Shown: in pieces, positions 6,180-64,000 of the stretch
How positions within the stretch are numbered: the first letter of the stretch is position 1
Layout of the letters: each line of letters begins with the position of its first letter
Origin: Pristiophorus japonicus
Taxonomy: Eukaryota
Assembly: GCF_044704955.1 (NCBI RefSeq)
Contig: NC_091979.1
Coordinates: 25,606,001 to 25,670,000, forward strand
Length of the DNA: 64,000 bases
Reading direction: 5' to 3'
Position numbers and translations under genes: made by a program
The notes under the pieces: model-generated
The model's database searches: none
Told to the model about the DNA's origin: nothing
What the model saw: only the letters and a program-made list of their open reading frames with translations

Positions 6180-7140
6180 TTTGGCCCAAACGCCTCAATA
6201 CCTTTTTGGTTGAAAAATATCTATCAAATCTCGGATTTTAATTTAAACAATCGAGCATCAAGTGCCGTTTGCAAGAGAGTTCCAAACTGCTACCACCCTT
6301 TGTAGGAGTGGTTCCTAATCGCACTCCTGAAAGATCTGGCTCTAATTTTTAGGCTATACCCCCCTAGTCCTAGATTTTCTAACCAACAAAAATAATTTCT
6401 CTCTATCGACCCTATCTGTTCCCCTTAATATCTTGAAAACTTCGATCAGATCACCCCTTATCCTTATAAATTCTAGGGAATGCAATCCTAATTTGTTTAA
6501 TCTCTCCTTGTAATTTAACCCTTGAAGTCCGGGTATCCTTCTGGTAAACCTACGCTGCACTCCTTCTAAGGCCAATATATCCTTCCTACAGTGTGGTGCC
6601 CAGAACTGCTCATTGTACTCCAGGTGTGGTCTAACCAGGGTTTTGTATAACTGCAGCATAACTTGTTTTCTAGTTCCATAGATATAAAGCCAGAATTCTG
6701 TTAGCCTTTTTGACTTGGAGAAGTGGAAGAAGTACTTTGGTACACAATAACATAAGAATTAGCAGGGGTAGGCCTTGCGGCCCCTTGAGCCTGCTCTGCC
6801 ATTCAAAGAGATCATCCCCATATCCTTTGATTTCCCCAGAGTACAAAATCTGTGATTTCCCCAGAGCACAAGATCTATCCGTCTCAACCTTGAATATACC
6901 CAACGATTCAGCATCCACAGTTCTCTGAGGCAGAGAATTCCAAAGATTCACAACCCTCTGAGTGAAGAAATTCCTCCTCATCTGTGTCTTAAATGGCCGA
7001 CCCCTTATCCTGAGACTCTGCCCCCTAATTCTAGACTCTCCAGCCAGGGGGAACCAACCTCTCAGCATTTACCCCCCCCCCCCCCTCAGAATCATATCAT
7101 GAGATCACCTCTCATTCTTCTAAACTCCAGAGAGTATAGG
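6180..7140 (-). mobile_element. Two CR1 3' fragments
   Basis: ORFs 6354-6659 and 6670-7068 give RPHLEY and FFTQRVVNLWN. Confidence 0.85.
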
Positions 7141-7800
7141 GTAGGGGAGGAGGAACGAAGGTCAGGGGGAAACATTTGGATGAGAATGATGACAGAAGAA
7201 TAGGGAAGGAGGTTTGAAGATCAGGGAGAAGCACTTGGATGAGGAATGGTGAAGGAAGAATAGAAAGAAGCATTTGTATGAGGAGGAGGAGGAGGCATGG
7301 AATAAGTAAGGAGGAATAAAGAAGAATGAAGGAGTTGGAGGAATGGTGATTAGGGAGAAGCACATGAGTCTGAGAAACACTCCTGTGAAGCGCCTTGAGA
7401 CATTTCACTACATTAAAGGCGCTATATAAATACAAGTTGCTGTTGAAAGAGGAGGCAGGGCTTTGAGGCGAAATGGAGAGCGGAAGGAATAATGAAGAAC
7501 TTGGATGAAGATTGAGCAGCAGGAACGTGGGAGCGGGACCTTTTTTTTGAGAGGAGGAATGGAGAAGAAGGAAAAGGACTTGGATAGAAAATAGATGCAG
7601 GAGTCGGCCATTTGGCCCTTCGAGCCTGCACCGCCATTCAATGAGTTCATGGCTGAACATGCAACTTCAGTACCCCATTTCTGCTTTGGAGAGGGAAAAG
7701 AGGAGGAGGACTGGAGAAGGAAGGAGGACTTGTGGGGGGAGGCAGAGTAAGAGGTAACGGAGGAATGAGGAACAGAAGGAAGGGGAAAGGAAATTAGGAG
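7140..7800 (+). repeat. Purine-rich low-complexity tract with embedded L2 tail and CR1 end
   Basis: GGA/GAA-rich sequence. Confidence 0.7.
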
Positions 7801-35930: not shown

Positions 35931-36526
35931 GGCTTTGGGAGGGATGGCCTTCCTCTCGAGGGGCCAAATGACCTACAGTTGCTCCTACTTCTTACATGAT
36001 CAGGTTACTTCAGAAATATTTTTCAGGTCGGAGGCATCGGCCCGCAATTTTTGGGCCAATGGGTTTGCATCCAGCAACAGCAGACAAAGTGCTCTGTGAC
36101 TGATTGGTGGGTTCAGATGAAAGGTCGTGGACTAGAAACGTTAACTCTGTGTTTCCCTCTCCAGTGCTGCAGAGTGCTATTTGTCATTCAAGCTCACACA
36201 CGCACACACACACTTCTATCTTGTGTGTTCAATACTGAACAGGGGCCAGTGGATTTAGGAGACTGGGTGAATCTATATGATAATGAATCGAGTTACATGT
36301 CACATCAGTGTTGAAAGCACTCCTGGGTCAAAAAAAAACTGCAATGCCATAAAACAAAAGTTGTTGCAATGGGTTCCTTCCTTGCTGGAGTTTGTTGACC
36401 AGGAAATTGGCAAAGTACTGGCTCGACTCCAGCGTTGTTTTTTTTTTAAGCCAGTTGGGTATGCGGGTATGCAGACATGCCACGGCTGCCAGAGCCTTCA
36501 GTAGGTTGACAGTGTGAAGAACAGCG

Positions 36527-36769
36527 ATGTCCCTCTCGCTGCACTTCTCCTCCGCTGGGAACCGGCTTCTGCCCGCAATCCGTGCCCTCTCCCCGTTGGC
36601 GCGGCGCAAGTCGAGCGCAAGATCGGCGGCGGCGGCGGATCTCGATAGCCGGACCCAGCGGCCGACCGGAGACTTGAAAAGCATCGGTGACCTGCCCGGC
36701 CAAGGTCTGATCGCTGGCATCTACTGGCTCTTCCTGAAGGGTTACCATGAAAAGACCCACGAACTTCAG
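36527..36769 (+). pseudogene. Orphan duplicate of CYP27A-type exon 1 within EAF2 intron 4 (open frame, donor intact)
   Basis: Differs from 57850-58095 by 2 substitutions and one 3-nt indel. No exon 2 was found before EAF2 exon 5. Confidence 0.8.
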
Positions 36770-38460
36770 GTAAAAAAAAAACTATTAACCTTGTTGTGTT
36801 CCTAACACAGATGAGACTGCACACAGGGAGGTTAAAGTAACAGTGACCTCAGTCTTTATTAAGACACTCCAGAGTGAGGAACAGGCCTTAGGGGGCCGTC
36901 TTATATACAGTGCTCCCAAGGGATGCTTGGGACTTCAGGGGATGCGCTCCCTGATGGCGGAACATGGGAGTGTATGCTTTACGGATACACAACATCACTC
37001 CCCCCCCGCCCCCCCACCCCAAAGTCAAAGTGAAAACTATTTACAAGGTGAGGTGGTTGGGAGCCTTTCTGTCCCTGGTGGACCGCCTTGGTACAAATGT
37101 CTGTTCTGGTGTGTTAGCTGTGCCCTCGCTGGGCTGGCATGTTGTTGGCCCTGCAGGGCTGCTGGGTGAGCCTGGCTTTGCTGGGTTGTTCAGTGTGATG
37201 GGTTCGATTTCCTGGTCCGGCGTGGTGTCGTTGATCCTTTTGGTGTGTGTTGTGGGCTCTCAAAAGGTGGTGTCTGCTTTGGGTTGTTCAGGGCAGTCTG
37301 AACCGCAGCCTCGTTTGGTCCAACTGCTTTCTGCAAATTTGTCCATTGTCTAGTTTGACTACAAACTCCCTACTCCCTTCTTTAGCTATCACCGTGCCCG
37401 CGATCCACTTGGGACCGTGTCCATAGTTTAGCACATACACAGGGTCATTCAGGTCAATTTCCCGTGACACAGTGGCGTGACCATCGTTTAGATTTTGTTG
37501 CTGCCGCCTGCTCTCTACCTGATCATGCAGGTTGGGGTGAACCAGCGAGAGTCTGGTTTTAAGTGTCCTTTTCTTGAGTAGCTCAGCCGGGGGCACCCCT
37601 ATGAGCAAGTGGGGTCTAGTGCGGTAGCTGAGCAGTACTCGGGACAGGCCGGTTTGGAGTGAGCCTTCTGTGACACGTTTGAGGCTCTGTTTGATTGTTT
37701 GTACTGCCCGCTCTGCCTGCCCATTGGTGGCTGGTTTAAACGGGGCCGAGGAGACATTGCGGGTCATGAATTCTTTAAACTCGGCACTGGTGAAACATGG
37801 CCCATTGTCATGGACCAATATGTCAGGCAGGCCGTGGGTGGCAAACATGGCCCTCAGGCTTTCAATGGTGACGATGGCGGTGCTTCCCGACATTATTTCA
37901 CATTCAATCCATTTTGAAAAAGCATCCACCACCACCAGGAACATTTTACCGAGAAATGGGCCCGCATAGTCGACATGGATCCTCGACTATGGTCTGGAGG
38001 GCCAGGACCACAAACTTAGTGGTGCCTCTCTGGGTGCGCTGCTCAACTGAGTACACACGTGCATTGCCGTACACAGGACTCTAAGTCAGAGTCGATACCG
38101 GGCCAACACACATGGGATCTGGCTATCGCTTTCGTCATTACTATATCTGGGTGTGTGCTATGGAGATCTGAGATGTCCTTGTTGGTTAGCACTACGTGGT
38201 TACCCCACAACAGGCAGTCTGCCTGAATGGACAGCTCGTCCTTTCGCCACTGGAACAGCTTGATTAGCTCTTGCATTTCAACGGGGATGCTGGCCCAGTT
38301 CCCATTCAGTACACAGTTTTTTTACTAGGGACAGCAGAGGATCTTGGATTTTCAAACACTTCCATGACCATCAACAAGTCTGCGGGCTGCGCCATCATCA
38401 ACAAGTTTGCAGGCTGCGCTGTTTCCACCCCCGTGGTGGGCAATGGTAGCCGACTGAGAG

Positions 38461-51440: not shown

Positions 51441-53084
51441 CCAATATTTCGTGCACCTGGGGCTCCGTTTCCATGCCCGTCGGAAGTGCGTTTTTGGAAA
51501 AACGGGCTCTCTCCCCGTGTAAAGCTTTTTCTGCCACTTAATCTAGGTTGGGGGGGGGGGAGGGAGAAGGAGTATGTCATGGGGGAAAAAACCGGCATTC
51601 CCAGTCCCACCAGAGGAGCTCTATCGGAAAATGACCCCCACGGGGCCCCCCCCACCCCCCCACCCCCCCCCTGACCTTTGTTGAGATGCCGAGAAGCTGC
51701 ATCTGCCTTGTTGGGTATGTGTGCCTTCTCTGCTCGAGCTGGGCAGCGATGTCCGAGGCAATCCCTACCACGCTCGTGCTCATCATCATCACAGGCGGTC
51801 CCTCGAACGAGGATGACTTGCTTCCACTTGAGTTCACAGATGTTTCGATGAAGGACCTGATGTTCCAGTCCTGAAATCCAATCAAAGGGGTGGAAGATGC
51901 CTGTGGGTGGATTTTTTTTTTTAAATGTGTGGTGACCGTTGCACACCAGCCACCACACGGGCTTGGCAGAGCTCGGCCTTTGTCCAGTGGCAAGGATTAA
52001 CCAGGACGACTGGAGACCTGCTCTGCTGCACGGACCCAGTGCGGACACATATCGCAGTGTGGGCTGGCCCGTGCTGCCCCTGGGCCCAGCGAATGAGGGT
52101 CATGTGACTGACGTGGAGTAGTGAAAATCATTCCATCCCCTTTTCCTCACCAGGACCCCTGCCACTATTGTACAACCGCCTGACTCTTAAGAGTTTCACT
52201 TGTTAACAGCACGTTATCTCAAAACATGACACGCATTCAATTACTTTGAAGTGCAATGCCTGGTTGTGTGGGGCCAAATATTGTGTCTGCTGGGATCGCT
52301 CCTGTTGCCCATTTCCTGTCACAAGCAATGGAGTTGTGCGAAAGGAACAAGGAGGGAGGAGGTGGTGGTGGTGGTTTGTTTTTGCAGCTGTTTCTAGATT
52401 ATCCCTTCGGAGCAAAGGGACTTGTTTCCTGCGATACTTGAATCTGAAAATAAAATCTCTGGAGCCTGTGCTTATGGGCTCGATGTGAGAGCCTTGTTTT
52501 TTTTGCCTCTTATTCCACTCGAGCTTTGCTTTCATGTGAAAACATTGAGTTTATCCAAGGTTCATATATGCATAACTGTCGGGACTTCTGTGGTGCAGTT
52601 AATGAATCATACATCATCATCATCATTCTAGGCAGTCCCTCGGAATTGAGGAAGACTTGCTTCCACTCTTAAGGACTCATTTTAAAGTGGCTGAACAGTC
52701 CAATATGAGAACCACAGTCCCTGTCACAGGTGGGACAGACAGTCGTTGAGGGGAAAGGGTGGGTGGGACAGGTTTGCCGCACACTCTTTCCGCTGCCTGC
52801 GCTTGATTTCTGCATGATCTTGGCGACGAGACTAGGTGCTCAGTGCCCTCTCGAATGCACTTTCTCCACTTAGGGCGGTCTTTGGCCAGGGACTCCCAGG
52901 TGTTAGTGGGGATGTTGCACTTTATCAGGGAGGCTTTAAGGGTGTCCTTGTAATGTTTCCTCTGCCCCTTTGGCTCGTTTGCCGTGAAGGAGTAGAACGC
53001 TTGCTTTGGGAGTCTCGTGTCGGGCATGCGAACAATGTGGCCTGCCCAGCGGAGCTGAACGTCATAGAACAGTACAGCACAGAA

Positions 53085-57240: not shown

Positions 57241-57849
57241 GGGATGGCTTTGGGAGGGATGGCCTTCCTCTCGAGGGGCCAAATGGCCTACAGTTGCTCC
57301 TACTTCTTACATGATCAGGTTACTTCGTAGACATTTATCAGGTCGGAGGCATCGGCCCGCAATTTCTGGGCCAACGGGTTTGTATCCAGCAACAGCAGAC
57401 AAAGTGCTCTGTGACTGATTGGTGGGTTCGGATGAAAGGTCGTGGACTAGAAACGTTAACTCTGTGTTTCCCTCTCCAGTGCTGCAGAGTGCTATTTGTC
57501 ATTCAAGCTCACACACGCACACACACACTTCTATCTTGTGTGTTCAATACTGAACAGGGGCCAGTGGATTTAGGAGACTGGGTGAATCTATATGATAATG
57601 AATCGAGTTACATGTCACATCAGTGTTGAAAGCACTCCTGGGTCATGTCACAAAAAAAAACCCAGCAATGCCATAAAACAAAAGTTGTTGCAATGGGTTC
57701 CTTCCTTGCTGGAGTTTGTTGACCAGGAAGTTTGCAAAGTACTGGCTCGATTCCAGCGTTGTTTTTTTTTAAGCCAGTTGGGTATGCGGGTATGCAGACA
57801 TGCCACGGCTGCCAGAGCCTTCAGTAGGTTGACAGTGTGAAGAACTGCG

Positions 57850-58095
57850 ATGTCCCTCTCGCTGCACTTCTCCTCCGCTGGGAACCGGCTTCTGCCCGCA
57901 ATCCGTGCCCTCGCCCCGTTGGCGCGGCGCAAGTCGAGCGCAAGACCGGCGGCGGCGGCGGCGGATCTCGATAGCCGGACCCAGCGGCCGACCGGAGACT
58001 TGAAAAGCATCGGTGACCTGCCCGGCCAAGGTCTGATCGCTGGCATCTACTGGCTCTTCCTGAAGGGTTACCATGAAAAGACCCACGAACTTCAG
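57850..58095 (+). CDS. CYP27A1: Mitochondrial cytochrome P450, CYP27A-type (sterol 27-hydroxylase-like), exon 1
   Basis: Arg/Ser/Ala-rich presequence MSLSLHFSSAGNRLLPAIRALAPLARRKSS, then LKSIGDLPGQGLIAGIYWLFLKGYHEKTHELQ|GTAAAA. This matches human CYP27A1 RSLEEIP...FQLFVQGYALQLHQLQ with the same phase-0 exon end. Later exons are not in the window. Confidence 0.8.
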
Positions 58096-59759
58096 GTAAA
58101 AAAAAACCCCAAACTATTAACCTCAACTAATCAGGCGCGGAAAGTTGAATTTTTCCTGCTGTTTTTTTGCTCGATGCAAAACTCCTATTGCACTTTCATC
58201 TCCTGCACTTTGCCCATGGCAAGAAAGACTTACATTTATATAGCGCCTTTCACGACACCCAGGACGTTTTTGGAGTATAGACTGTTGAAACGTGGGAAAC
58301 GCAGCAGCCAATTTGCATACATCAAGCAGCAATGTGATAATGACCAGATAATCTGTTTTTGCTATGTTGATTGAGGGATAAATATTGGCCCCAGGACACC
58401 GGGGATAACTCCTCTGCTCTTCTTCGTAATACTGCCACGGGATCTTTTACGTCCACCTGCGAGAGCAGACGGGGCCTTGGTTTAACGTCGCATCCGAAAG
58501 ACAGCACCTCTGACAGTGCAGCACTCCCTCAGCACGGCACTGGGAGTATCAGCTTGGATTTTTAAATGCTCAAGTCCTTGGACATAAGAACATAAGAAAT
58601 AGGAGCAGGAGTAGGCCATCTGGCTCCTCAAGTCTGCTCCGCCATTCAATAAGATCATGGCTGATCTGATCATGGACTCAGCTCCACTTCCCCGCCCGCT
58701 CCCCATAACCCTTTACTCCCTTATCGCTCAAAAATCTATGTATCTCCGCCTTAAATATATTCAATGACCCAGCCTCCACAGCTCACTGGGGCAGAGAATT
58801 CCATAGATTTACAACCCTCAGAGAAGAAATTTCTTGTCATCACAGTTTTAAATGGGCGTCCCCTTATTCTGAGACTATGTCTCCCAGTTTTAGTTTCCTC
58901 TGTGAGTGGAAATATCCTCTCTGCATCCACCTTGTGGCGGAGACTGTGGTTCTCGTATGGGGCTGGCCAGTCGCCTAGGAACTCATTTTGAGAGCGGAAG
59001 CAAGACTTCCTCGATTCCGAGGGACTGCCTATGACGACGATGATGATGATGTTGGGAAAATGCTATAAAAATTACCTTGAATGTTGCATCAAAATAGATG
59101 TTCAGCAGTTAGGCAGAATTGTGAGAAACCGAAAGAGCTGTTGTTAATTAAAACCATGACAGATTGGGCCCAAGTTTCGGGTGGAATTGCTCCTAGTTTT
59201 TTGGAGCAACTAGTTTAGTTTGGAGTATGTTAGAAATTGCAATTCTCGGATATTAGTTTGCTCCAGTTCTAGTGAGTTAGTTTAGGTTGGCTTTAGGTAA
59301 GGTACTTTTTTTTCAAAAGGGGGTGTGTCCAACCACTCAAGTTTTGCAAGTTTTGGCAGTGAAAACTTACTACAAACTAACTTAGAATAGAGTAAGTGTC
59401 CACTTTTGTAAGTTCTGAAAAACCTTACCTAGAGTTAAGTTTAGTGCAGGCACAGCCAGAGAAGGTGGATGGGAAGCATTAAACACAAAGGACACATCAA
59501 CATCACAACAGCGGGGGGTAAGGGAAGTTAGAGGATTTTCCATAAACACCTTCACAACAACATTAAAGAAGCAAAGTACATTTAAAGCACCAAGCACTAA
59601 ACAAAGCAGTACATTTAAAGCACTAAGCACTAAACGAAGCACAAAAAGTAATAAGCAATTAATTAATACAAAATAGAAGTCCTACCTTTATGTGAAGGGA
59701 AGGTGTCTCTCACTGTAGTGTCTCTCTCTCTCTGTATCTGACAGTGAGGAGTGCGCGGG

Positions 59760-60240
59760 GGTGGGGTGTGTGTGTGGTGTGTGTCTGTATATGTGTGGGA
59801 GTGGGGGGGGTGGGGGGTGTGTGTATGTGTGGGAGTGGGGGGGGTGTGTGTGTATGTGTGGGAGTGGGGGGGGGGGTGTGGGAGGGGGTGTGTGTATGTG
59901 TGGGAGTGGGGGGGGGGGTGTATGTGTGGGAGTGGGGGGGGGGTGTATGTGTGGGAGTGCGGGGGGGTGTGTATGTGTGGGAGTGGGGGGGGGGTGTGTG
60001 TATGTGTGGGAGTGGGGGGGAGTGTGTATGTGTGGGAGTAGGGGGGGGTGTATGTATGTGTGGGAGTGGGGGGGAGTGTGTATGTGTGGGAGTAGGGGGG
60101 GGGTGTGTGTATGTGTGGGAGTGGAGGGTGGTGTGGGAGGGGGTGTGTGTGTGTGTGTGTGTGTGGGAGTGGGGAGGGTGGGATAGGGGGTGTGTGGGGG
60201 GGGTTGGATGTGGGGGGGGTGGGTGTGTGTGGGGTGGGGG
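59760..60240 (+). repeat. G-rich minisatellite, about 24-bp unit TGTATGTGTGGGAGTGn
   Basis: Direct tandem units. Confidence 0.9.
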
Positions 60241-60371
60241 AGAGGCTGGAAGGAGGCAACCCTGCTCTCTCCTCCGGCCCTTCGATCATTGAATGCCCCC
60301 CAACCCACGCTCTTCCATCCATGTTGCCACGCTACCCCCCTCCGCCCCCCCCAGTTGCCACGCTCCCCCCC

Positions 60372-60605
60372 CCCCCCCGGTACCCACGCCCCCCCCGGTA
60401 CCCATGCCCCCCCCTGGTACCCATGCCCCCCCGGTACCCACGCCCACCCCGGTACCCATGCCCCCCGGTACCCACGCCCCCCCCGGTACCCATGCCCCCC
60501 CGGTACCCATGCCACCCCCGGTACCCAGCCCCCCCCCTTGGTACCCATGCCCCCCCGGTACCCACGCCCCCCGGTACTCATGCCCCCCGGTACCCACGCA
60601 CCCCC
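60372..60605 (+). repeat. C-rich minisatellite, about 18-19-bp unit CnGGTACCCAYG
   Basis: About 12 tandem units, each with the GGTACC palindrome or a variant. Confidence 0.9.
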
Positions 60606-61080
60606 GAGCCATTGCGCAGGCGCACATGCTCCAACGCACCTGCGCAACGCTGCCAGCACTGAGAAGAAGGCATGATCCCTAGCCCCGCCACCCTGCAGGC
60701 AGGCCCCTCCCCAGGGAGACTACGCCACGCCACGGCCCAGGAGGACCGGAGAATTGCTGTAGAATATTCCGGCGCACCTTCGAGCCCAGGCAGGTCACAT
60801 AAGTCTCAGAGATGCGCCGTTTTCACCAGATGCCGAAACTTGGGCCCATTACGTGGTGGTGGGTGGGGAGGGGTTTCATACTCAGCTGTATATACCAAAG
60901 ATCTTCTGCATTCAGTTCCTTTCCTGTTAAGTAAATGACAAAAATTAGCAATCTTCAGCATAGTTTTGTGCAGAAATCAAAGACAAATTTTCAGCATAAA
61001 CGATCAGTTTGGAGCTTATGAGATTCTTGTATGGAGGGGATTCAACTCAAATCAATTAACGTTCATCGTGGATAGGCAGC

Positions 61081-61615
61081 ACATGGGAACATGGGGTGTG
61101 CGGGCAGGGGTGGGCCGTCCGCCCCCTCGAGCCTGCTCCGCCATTTAGTGCGGTCGTGGCTGGTCCGGTCGTGGACTCGGGTCCGCTTTCCTGCCCGTTC
61201 CCCATGGCCTCTTGGTCCCTTGTCGGTCGGGAGGCTGTCTAGCTCCGTCATAGGTTTGGTCGGTGTCCTGGCTTCCACGGCTCTCTGGGGCGGCGAGTTC
61301 CGCGGATTTGCGCCCCTCTGGGGCGGGGTGGGGAGTTTCCTCCTCGTCTCAGTTTTGGATGGGCGGTCACTTGTTCTGGAATTGTGCCCCCTGATTCTGG
61401 TCGCCCCTATCAGTGGGGGCGTCCTTTCTGCGTCCGCCTTGTCTGGCCCCCTCGTGATCTTGTGCGTTTCGGTGGGATCGCCTCTCATTCTTCTGTGTTC
61501 CGGTGGGTGGAGGCCCGGCCTCCTCAACCTTTCCTCATGGGTCGGCCCACTCATCTCTGGGGTCGATCTGGTGAGCCTCCCCTGGGCTGCCTCCGGGGTG
61601 GGTATATGCTTTCGT
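61081..61615 (-). mobile_element. CR1 3' fragment with A-to-G hypermutation on the + strand
   Basis: Colinear with 13422-13940 and 58582-58935, but most + strand A residues are G. Confidence 0.9.
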
Positions 61616-61619
61616 ATAT

Positions 61620-61790
61620 CCAACGTGGACCATTTCCCATACCTCGGGAGCCTCTCATCAACAAGAACAGAAATTGAGATTCAACACCGCCTCCAGTGCG
61701 CCAGCGCAGCCTTCGGCCACCTGAGGAAAAGAGTGTTTGAAGACCAGGCCCTCAAATCCACCACCAAGCTCATGGTCTACAGGGCTATAG
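61620..61790 (+). mobile_element. RTE-clade LINE internal fragment cut by the downstream CR1
   Basis: NVDHFPYLGSL...EIQHRLQCASAAFGHLRKRVF...KLMVYRA. Confidence 0.85.
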
Positions 61791-64000
61791 CAGTCGGCGA
61801 GAGGCGGGAGCAGCGTGGAGAGGCCTATAAAAGGCCCAGCTTGTGCAGCTCCAGCCGGGAGAAAAAGCAGAAAAGAAGTAGAAAGGAATCAAAAGGTGAC
61901 GTCACAGCCAAAGGGGCAAGTGATTGGCTGGTGATTGGTAAGTAGTTTTTCTTTTTCTTTTTTATATCAGTAAGTAACCTGTTAACAGTGTTGTCATCAA
62001 TTTAAGTGTATCTAAGGGTTAAGTCATGGCAGGGGAGCTCAGTCACCTGATATGCTCCTCCTGTACCATGTGGGAACTCAGGGACACTTCCGGTGTCCCT
62101 GACGACTACGTGTGCGGGAAGTGTATCCGCCTCCAGCTCCTGACGGACCGCGTTGCGGAATTGGAGCTGAGGGTGGATTCACTCTGGAGCATCCACGATG
62201 CTGAGAATGACATGAGTAGCACGTGTAGCGAGTTGGTCTTACCGCAGGAGAAGGGTCCACATCCAGCTAGGGAATGGAAGACCAGCAGGAAGAGTAGTGC
62301 AAGGAAGGTAGTGCAGGGGTCCCTTGTGGTCATCCCCCTGCAAAACAGATACACTGCTTTGAGTACTGTTGAGGGGGATGACTCATCAGGGGAGGGCAGC
62401 AGCAGCCAAGTTCATGGCACCGTGGCTGGCTCTGCTGCACAGGAGGGCAGGAAAAAGAATGGGAGAGCGATAGTGATAGGGGATTCAATTGTGAGGGGAA
62501 TAGATAGGCGTTTCTGCGGCCGCAAACGAGACTCCAGGATGGTATGTTGCCTCCCTGGTGCAAGGGTCAAGGATGTCTCGGAGCGGGTGCAGGACATTCT
62601 AAAAAGGAAGGGAGAACAGCCAATTGTCGTGGTGCACATTGGTACCAACGACATAGGTTAAAAAAAGGGATGAGGTCCTACGAAACGAATTTAAGGAGCT
62701 AGGAGCTAAATTAAAAAGTAGGACCTCAAAAGTAGTAATCTCGGGATTGCTACCAGTGCCACGTGCTAGTCAGAGTAGGAATCGCAGGATAGCGCAGATG
62801 AATACGTGGCTTGAGCAGTGGTGCAGCAGGGAGGGATTCAAATTCCTGGGGCATTGGAACCGGTTCTGGGGGAGGTGGGACCAGTACAAATCGGATGGTC
62901 TGCACCTGGGCAGGACTGGAACCAATGTCCTAGGGGGAGTGTTTGCTAGTGCTGTTGGGGAGGAGTTAAACTAATATGGCAGGAGGATGGGAACCAATGC
63001 AGGGAGACAGAGGGAAACAAAAAGGAGACAAAAGCAAAAGACAGAAAGGAGATGAGGAAAAGTGGAGGGCAGAGAAACCCAAGGCATAGAACAAAAAGGG
63101 CCACTGTACAGCAAAATTCTAAAAGGTGTCTTAATGCAAGGAGTATCCGTAATAAGGTAGATGAATTAACTCTGCAAATAGATGTTAACAAATATGATGT
63201 GATTGGGATTACAGAGACGTGGCTCCAGGATGATCAGGGCTGGGAACTCAACATCCAGGGGTATTCAACATTCAGAAAGGATAGAATAAAAGGAAAAGGA
63301 GGCGGGGTAGCATTGCTGGTTAAAGAGGAGATTAATGCAATAGTTAGGAAGGACATTAGCTTGGATGATGTGGAATCTATATGGGTAGAGCTGCAGAACA
63401 CCAAAGGGCAAAAAACGTTAGTGGGAGTTGTGTACAGACCTCCAAACAGCAGTAGCGATGTTGGGGAGGGCATCAAACAGGAAATTAGGGGTGCATGCAA
63501 TAAAGGTGCAGCAGTTATAATGGGTGACTTTAAAATGCACATAGATTGGCCTAACTAAACTGGAAGCAATACGGTGGAGGAGGATTTCCTGGAGTGCATA
63601 AGGGATGGTTTTCTAGACCAATATGTCAAGGAACCAACTAGGGGGGAGGCCATCTTAGACTGGGTGTTGTGTAATGAGAGAGGATTAATTAGCAATCTCG
63701 TTGTGCGAGGCCCCTTGGGGAAGAGTGACCATAATATGGTGGAATTCTGCATTAGGATGGAGAATGAAACAGTTAATTCAGAGACCATGGTCCAGAACTT
63801 AAAGAAGGGTAACTTTGAAGGTATGAGGCGTGAATTGGCTAGGATAGATTGGCGAATGATACTTAAGGGGTTGACTGTGGATGGGCAATGGCAGACATTT
63901 AGAGACCGCATGGATGAACTACAACAATAGTACATTCCTGTCTGGCGTAAAAATAAAAAAGGGAAGGTGGCTCAACCGTGGCTAACAAGGGAAATCAGGG
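61791..64000 (+). mobile_element. 5'-intact CR1 LINE of the same family, disrupted, running off the window end
   Basis: ORF1 62026-62974 frameshifted near 62660. ORF2 has a deletion near 63125 and stops at about 63558 and 63930. Confidence 0.93.

What the first reader, a model, noticed from the sequence alone, without database searches (positions are those of the whole stretch)
61060..61800. How the edited RNA entered the genome: RTE template-switch chimera or write-back of host pre-mRNA
Seen: the edited antisense CR1 joins directly (about 61615-61620) to the 5'-truncated end of an unedited, + strand RTE fragment. The edited strand is also the sense strand of the CYP27A intron it lies in. CR1 machinery recognises its own sense 3' end, so it should not mobilise an antisense RNA. 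Inference A: an RTE reverse transcriptase switched template onto a hyper-edited cellular RNA. Inference B: the edited intronic pre-mRNA was copied back onto its own locus (RNA-templated repair or conversion).
Basis: inference. Interest (0 to 1): 0.75.

Follow-up and report, generated by a model that had tools for sequence, protein, structure and literature searches.

The report
Edited RNA hitchhiked into the genome
This stretch is one third of a backwards jumping-gene copy in which two thirds of the A letters became G, likely by RNA editing; the neighbouring element that looked like its carrier simply sits inside it, and four other edited copies in this genome still have unedited originals elsewhere, so edited RNA was likely pasted in from another place rather than written back on the spot.

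Summary
The editing and the junction are real, but inference A fails here. The edited antisense CR1 resumes after the RTE. It is one ~1.9-kb element in three collinear pieces (299 of 437 A>G, ADAR-like context). The unedited RTE sits inside it with a 14-nt duplication, at a CR1 position that RTEs hit repeatedly.

Inference B is not excluded, but nothing specific supports it: no edited partner arm lies within 214 kb.

Other edited copies show a route in. For 4 of 7 searched I found an unedited source elsewhere in the genome. In the three pairs counted by zone, edits are confined to paired arms. Six of 8 copies end in or just before a sense RTE-tailed SINE or CR1 tail. Antisense arms therefore likely ride as 5' passengers, by read-through or template switch.

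This copy most likely came the same way (~0.62). Its source was not found and its 3' end is rearranged. In-place write-back keeps ~0.22.

The scan had already noted ADAR-type edited CR1s and source loci on other DNA of this genome. Ten paper searches showed no published case.

The parts
57850..58095 (+). Exon 1 of the host mitochondrial-clan P450 (CYP27-like by recall); intron 1 runs from 58096 to about 96780 in continued numbering
   Evidence: exon 2 matches Pfam p450
59165..60848 (.). Element with short inverted ends (DNA-transposon-like, by recall) left of the flank
   Evidence: sequence
60873..61083 (.). Left flank with two distant homologues (L090, L091; 17.7% substitutions) that lack the CR1; homology stops at the CR1 tail; 2-3 A>G in its last ~17 nt
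61081..61619 (-). Edited CR1 piece 1 (3' end with tail; CR1 on -, edits A>G on +), 94 of 138 A>G. Pieces 2 and 3 lie beyond the window, at 66630-67590 (152 of 224 A>G) and 70741-71220 (63 of 106) in continued numbering.
61606..61619 (+). Left copy of the RTE's 14-nt target-site duplication (CR1 majority 547-560); the right copy is beyond the window at 66630-66643
61621..61790 (+). 5'-truncated RTE-like LINE, first part, unedited (0 of 45 A>G); it resumes beyond the window at 66016-66630 and ends in (ATG)n (5 of 159 A>G)
61791..64000 (+). Younger, unedited CR1 of another subfamily nested in the RTE (3.1% from relatives); runs on to 66015. Also beyond the window, in continued numbering: a second younger CR1 at 67591-70737 between pieces 2 and 3; a rearranged right end at 71221-72135 (unedited sense CR1 fragment, then an inverted tail-less SINE plus unique piece matching C1:530.56 Mb, a candidate carrier remnant); and a copied intron piece from C1:79.54 Mb at 72904-73287.

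Best explanation
The edited antisense CR1 is one 1.9-kb element with the RTE nested inside it, and it likely arrived as the 5' passenger of an ADAR-edited cellular RNA that a LINE reverse transcriptase copied into this intron from another locus. Steps: (1) A transcript read through the antisense CR1 and paired with a sense copy, and ADAR edited the duplex. This is inferred here; stem-limited editing is shown at three other loci. (2) A LINE enzyme primed on a sense 3' end downstream, an RTE-tailed SINE or a CR1 tail, either in the same RNA or on a second RNA followed by a template jump. Read-through is shown for L002, a jump is inferred for L006, and the step is only inferred here. (3) 5' truncation likely dropped an upstream partner arm, as at L003. 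(4) Two younger CR1s then inserted (shown), and a rearrangement erased the right end (inferred). The RTE at 61621 is an ordinary insertion at a recurrent target; it may already have been in the source RNA as an unpaired loop (~0.6).
For: Collinear pieces and 14-nt duplication. 5'-neighbour bias U 100/123, A 92/119, C 78/133, G 29/62, p 1e-6. Unedited sources for 4 of 7 other edited loci searched (+56, 53, 54; none for L015, L011, L026). Source-to-copy A>G: L002 arms 104/222 and 99/268 against loop 5/127 and flanks 14/432, 14/345; L006 arms 22/86 and 17/71 against unpaired 16/279; L012 arms 171/362 and 110/261 against spacer 17/456. L002's shared 5.5-kb block ends at a SINE (ATG)n tail and splits a host repeat. 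L006 has a 10-nt duplication. In L003's source the sense partner lies 270 nt upstream, outside the copied part. A sense RTE-tailed SINE lies within 2 kb downstream in 4 of 8 other loci, mirror control 0 of 8, and 2 more end in a sense CR1 tail. Here: no other edited tile in 214 kb; no sense copy at 80% or more covers majority positions 1327-1936 within the host gene; 3 of 3 unique pieces next to the element have a distant twin against 0 of 4 control pieces (against 82, 83, 92, 93).
Against: No source locus for this copy. The flank search had only 3 candidates genome-wide, none with a CR1. Junction searches found none but scored only 40 of about 2,000 candidates each. No duplication around the whole insert and no intact carrier tail. 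The flank homologues are 17.7% diverged against 6.3-11.5% for the other pairs, so the flank could be native and the homologues derived from it. The two right-hand foreign pieces could be separate later insertions. The edited strand equals the host gene's sense strand, which B requires and this model gives half the time. The comparison loci were found by similarity to this copy, so they are not a random sample.
Confidence: 0.62

Rival explanations
1. B: the CR1 inserted here normally; later the host pre-mRNA was hyper-edited and a tract of 1.9-2.7 kb was written back onto its own locus by RNA-templated repair or cDNA conversion.
For: Edited strand is the gene's sense strand. The CR1 3' junction is clean against a flank whose homologues are empty. 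2-3 A>G spill into the last ~17 nt of flank. No source locus found. The two duplication copies differ at one A/G site, as if edited separately. RNA-templated break repair exists in human cells (PMC12065846, passages).
Against: No edited partner in 214 kb, and no partner at 80% or more for the distal 600 nt within the gene. All 4 edited loci whose origin I could trace are copies of a distant unedited source. The flank spill and the duplication difference fit import equally well. Foreign pieces abut the element.
Confidence: 0.22
2. The antisense strand was edited during an ordinary CR1 insertion, for example ADAR acting on the cDNA strand of the RNA:DNA hybrid, or reverse transcriptase putting G opposite U.
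For: The element has a complete CR1 3' end and is edited from the tail onward at a fairly even level; no partner is needed.
Against: At other loci both arms are edited on one physical strand and loops are spared, which a cDNA process cannot give. Edits seem to reach the flank (weak). The 5'-G avoidance is ADAR-like, not expected of nucleotide-pool errors (inference).
Confidence: 0.08
3. A as written: the RTE enzyme switched template onto the edited RNA at 61620.
For: Direct junction, same strand, RTE 5'-truncated and unedited.
Against: Edited CR1 continues 3' of the RTE tail with a 14-nt duplication; the same CR1 position is an RTE target in 9 of 9 other loci examined.
Confidence: 0.02

Closest known systems
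Chimeric LINE insertions and 5' transductions (U6/L1, Alu/L1, mRNA/L1; PMC13174262, abstract and passages)
   Same: A LINE-recognised 3' end carries unrelated RNA at its 5' side, by RNA ligation, splicing or template switch; same orientation; duplication around the whole insert.
   Different: Here the carriers are an RTE-tailed SINE or a CR1 tail, the cargo is kilobases of unspliced repeat-rich RNA, and the cargo is hyper-edited in its stems. The word 'editing' does not occur in that paper's main text.
ADAR hyper-editing of inverted repeats in RNA (PMC5625713, passages; includes elephant shark; neighbour rule also in PMC8586724, passages)
   Same: Clusters of A>G in paired inverted repeats, with G depleted 5' of the edited A.
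   Different: Those are seen in RNA reads; here the pattern is in genomic DNA.
APOBEC-edited LTR retroelements fixed in vertebrate genomes (PMC4866542, passages)
   Same: A host deaminase's hypermutation is fixed in germline retrocopies.
   Different: That is cytidine-deaminase editing of LTR elements; here A>G in non-LTR cargo, limited to stems.
RNA-templated double-strand break repair (PMC12065846, passages) and the target-site reverse transcription hypothesis (PMC12941027, passages)
   Same: What inference B would be a germline fossil of.
   Different: B needs a 2-3 kb in-place tract; every traceable edited locus here is instead a copy at a new place.
RTE-related retroposon insertion signature (PMC6007223, abstract only)
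   Same: A microsatellite tail correlates with the first base of the duplication; RTE target choice is not random.
   Different: Here a single nucleotide inside a CR1 family is hit repeatedly; I did not test the T-stretch rule.

Membership tests
ADAR hyper-edited sequence | Dense one-strand A>G far above other changes | tested here: met
   299 of 437 A>G against 9 of 280 G>A
ADAR hyper-edited sequence | 5' neighbour U/A > C > G | tested here: met
   0.81, 0.77, 0.59, 0.47; p 1e-6
ADAR hyper-edited sequence | Edits confined to a double-stranded stem with an identifiable partner | tested here: inconclusive
   Met at L002, L006, L012; no partner found for this copy
ADAR hyper-edited sequence | Dependence on ADAR enzyme | not testable with these tools
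   needs an experiment
RTE template-switch chimera at 61620 | Cargo ends at the junction; one duplication around cargo plus RTE; none around the RTE alone | tested here: not met
   CR1 resumes after the RTE tail with a 14-nt duplication
Independent RTE insertion | 5' truncation, microsatellite tail, own duplication, recurrent target | tested here: met
Transduced or chimeric retrocopy | Unedited source locus elsewhere | tested here: inconclusive
   Not found for this copy (three of these capped at 40 scored candidates); found for 4 of 7 other loci searched
Transduced or chimeric retrocopy | Sense LINE/SINE 3' tail at the 3' end of the edited strand | tested here: inconclusive
   Right end rearranged: sense CR1 fragment, then an inverted SINE without its tail; met at 6 of 8 other loci, and at L006 once its copied block is traced
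Transduced or chimeric retrocopy | Duplication or split host element around the whole insert | tested here: inconclusive
   None seen here, but the right end is lost; met at L002, L003, L006, not seen at L012
In-place RNA-templated write-back | Edited strand equals the transcribed strand of the host gene | tested here: met
In-place RNA-templated write-back | A pairing partner for the whole element in the same pre-mRNA | tested here: not met
   No sense copy at 80% or more covers majority 1327-1936 in the gene today; later deletion is possible
In-place RNA-templated write-back | Unedited CR1 at the orthologous site in relatives | not testable with these tools
   No relatives held; all listed runs are the same organism
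Amplified edited CR1 family of earlier scan notes | Shares a founder's edit pattern with hundreds of copies | tested here: not met
   Best non-self hits 77-79% and 81%; shared non-A differences with 6 other edited copies 0-8
CR1-clade and RTE-clade LINEs | Clade assignment by RT phylogeny or a repeat library | not tested

The most novel reading that the evidence does not exclude
The element was edited in place: a hyper-edited intron of 2-3 kb, with the RTE looped out, was written back onto its own locus in the germ line. That would be a natural fossil of long-tract RNA-templated repair in a vertebrate.
Probability: 0.22. Interest if true: 0.9.

Novelty: new variant of a known kind. Interest (0 to 1): 0.6.

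Why it matters
The source-and-copy pairs indicate that RNA editing can become heritable DNA sequence, and they name a likely route. Any transcript that ends in, or is joined to, a LINE-recognised tail can carry edited repeats into the germ line, so 'strict' CR1 and RTE machinery is no barrier to antisense cargo. Each pair also records which parts of an ancient germline RNA were double-stranded. The pairs give a test between retroposition and the long-debated in-place write-back: edited loci with no source, no carrier tail and an unedited orthologue would be true write-back. This locus is a candidate for that test, not proof of it.

Tried and rejected
1. Source searches for this copy found none: left flank, right junction (42), both RTE junctions (96, 97).
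2. The homologues L090/L091 are not the source: no antisense CR1 of this subfamily follows the flank, and they are 17.7% diverged.
3. The C1:530.56 Mb and C1:79.54 Mb regions supply only short pieces, not the edited CR1.
4. I first took 51685-51805 for exon 1. It has no Pfam match and its end is a translated SINE tail; the real exon is at 57850-58095.
5. An exon-like reading of the flank's minus strand could not be tied to a gene.
6. The sense CR1 fragment at 71221 is not an edited partner (0 A>G, 56 A kept).
7. Whether the RTE came before or after editing is unresolved. Divergence is 4.8% and 9.6% for its two parts against 5.8-7.3% for the CR1, and one duplication site is discordant.
8. For L006 the first flank query hit only a repeat; a junction query (53) found the source. 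L027 was not searched for a source.
9. No RNA holder listed.
10. In 84 ten-kb stretches, 16 of 264 aligned repeat segments were edited, all at loci fetched because they were edited; such copies are rare in this sample.

Full report
Coordinates. The window is G000:C3:25606001-25670000 in a 5.9-Gb genome. Numbers above 64000 continue the window numbering into fetched neighbouring DNA. Only the RT domain of a CR1-like relative and the P450 nature of the host gene were tested.

1. The observation. 61081-61619 is the 3' end of a CR1-like LINE on the minus strand, tail included, with A>G on the plus strand. It abuts an RTE-like fragment truncated at 61621. The host gene's exon 1 ends at 58095 and exon 2 is at 96780-96971, both on plus, so the edited strand is the gene's sense strand. 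Contigs of two DNA runs carry flank, edited CR1 and junction with 0 and 2 differences; they are one sample, possibly the assembly's own.

2. The edited CR1 continues beyond the window in two more collinear pieces, 66630-67590 and 70741-71220. Over all three, 299 of 437 A sites read G, against 9 of 280 G>A. Editing by 5' neighbour is U 100/123, A 92/119, C 78/133, G 29/62 (p 1e-6), the ADAR rule as stated in PMC8586724 and PMC5625713 (passages). The RTE resumes at 66016 and ends in (ATG)n at 66630; it is unedited (0/45 and 5/159). Pieces 1 and 2 overlap by 14 nt of CR1, each copy 12 of 14 identical to the majority and 10 of 14 to each other: a target-site duplication. Two unedited CR1s, 3.1% and 3.8% from their relatives against 5.8-7.3% for the edited one, inserted later.

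3. Inference A fails here. A query across the RTE tail and piece 2 gave 39 of 39 non-self hits spanning the junction. In 9 of 9 examined, the tail joins the same CR1 position in an unedited CR1, with at least 6 different RTE 5' ends. The RTE is an ordinary insertion at a favoured site. It may predate the editing: one duplication site is G in one copy and A in the other, the A-runs around the hot spot are edited away, and its divergence is not lower than the CR1's. I put that at about 0.6. It would make the RTE a looped-out passenger, still not the carrier.

4. How other edited copies entered. One search returned 30 loci, of which 8 others carried clustered A>G. They share few non-A differences with this copy (0-8 in the 6 compared), so they are separate events. 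I searched 7 of the 8 for a source and found an unedited twin for 4: L002, L012, L006 and L003. None was found for L015, L011 or L026.

Source-to-copy A>G is confined to paired arms. L002: 104/222 and 99/268 in arms, 5/127 in the loop, 14/432 and 14/345 in flanks. L006: 22/86 and 17/71 in arms, 16/279 in the unpaired part. L012: 171/362, 110/261 and 9/34 in arms, 17/456 in the spacer. Both arms are edited on one physical strand, which points to a folded RNA.

The copies look retroposed. L002's 5.5-kb shared block ends at the (ATG)n tail of a SINE that is also in the source, and it splits a host repeat (262 hits span the rejoined flanks). L006 ends in such a tail with a 10-nt duplication, and the source lacks the SINE at that spot, which suggests a template jump or later loss. 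L003 is a lone antisense arm joined to a SINE; its host rejoins (14 hits), and its source has a sense partner 270 nt upstream, outside the copied part. For L012 neither a rejoined host nor the SINE in the source was seen.

Across the 8 loci, a sense RTE-tailed SINE lies within 2 kb downstream in 4 (3 by motif, L011 by alignment), against 0 of 8 in the mirror control. The motif background is 0.038 per kb per strand, giving binomial p 0.0016; this is optimistic because the background counts the motif only. L026 and L027 end in sense CR1 tails; L015's nearest tail is 5.2 kb away.

5. This copy. For import: no other edited tile in 214 kb, of which 112.5 kb could be aligned. No sense copy at 80% or more covers the distal 600 nt within the host gene. 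The three unique pieces next to the element each have a distant twin, while 0 of 4 control pieces do: two are single-copy, one is only locally duplicated, one is an old repeat. The right end holds an unedited sense CR1 fragment and an inverted, tail-less SINE that would have been sense before the inversion. Against import: no source; no duplication around the whole; flank homologues more diverged (17.7%) than the other pairs (6.3-11.5%), so the flank may be native; and gene-sense orientation, which B needs. The 2-3 A>G in the last 17 nt of flank weakly suggest the flank was in the edited RNA, under either model. My odds: import 0.62, in-place write-back 0.22, editing during insertion 0.08, A 0.02.

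6. Known systems and novelty. It works like a chimeric or 5'-transduced LINE insertion (PMC13174262, abstract and passages) whose cargo was an ADAR substrate. For this copy, membership is unproven because source, tail and outer duplication are missing. APOBEC editing of LTR elements (PMC4866542, passages) is the parallel for fixed deaminase scars. RNA-templated repair (PMC12065846, passages; hypothesis review PMC12941027, passages) is what B would be. Ten paper searches (listings only, except the papers named) showed no report of ADAR-edited non-LTR retrocopies fixed in a genome. The library lacks most subscription papers, and no supplements were read.

Earlier scan notes on other DNA of this genome already describe an amplified edited CR1 family and a few source loci, and SINE- or CR1-tailed retrocopies; two of the papers above were leads from those notes. 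This copy is not of that family.

7. Verdict. Observation confirmed; A refuted at this junction; B open but less likely; new variant of a known kind; interest 0.6.

Noticed in passing
window 61606-61620; L276-L284: RTE insertion hot spot inside a CR1 family: 39 of 39 non-self hits span RTE tail and CR1; 9 of 9 examined join at the same CR1 position, with at least 6 different RTE 5' ends. The hits were selected by a junction query.
   Followed up: partly
window 36063-36791 and 57376-58123: Exon 1 of the P450 gene is present twice, 96% identical, 21 kb apart; the upstream copy lies among exons of an EAF-like gene (name by recall).
   Followed up: no
L056 8904-9287 (72904-73287 in continued numbering): Copy of an intron piece from C1:79.54 Mb (PLAA-like gene by recall) that stops 5 nt short of that intron's 5' splice site; possibly copied from an excised intron, or cut by the next CR1.
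   Followed up: partly
L056 7777-8079 (71777-72079 in continued numbering): SINE plus ~100 nt of unique upstream sequence matching an intron of a VPS13B-like gene (name by recall) at C1:530.56 Mb; an unedited 5' transduction.
   Followed up: partly
L060-L063 (C9, 202-213 Mb): One edited CR1 is present in four copies about 98% identical with shared flanks, likely duplicated as DNA after editing.
   Followed up: partly
L102 about 7040-7330: At L011 an antisense RTE nested in the edited CR1 appears edited too, so nested inserts can predate editing.
   Followed up: partly
L094-L095 (about 123300-126500 in continued numbering): Long gag/pol-like reading frames of an LTR-element type (gypsy-like by recall) in a later intron of the P450 gene; observed only.
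   Followed up: no
G000:C3:25786784-25801227: A second P450 on the minus strand, convergent with the host gene.
   Followed up: no
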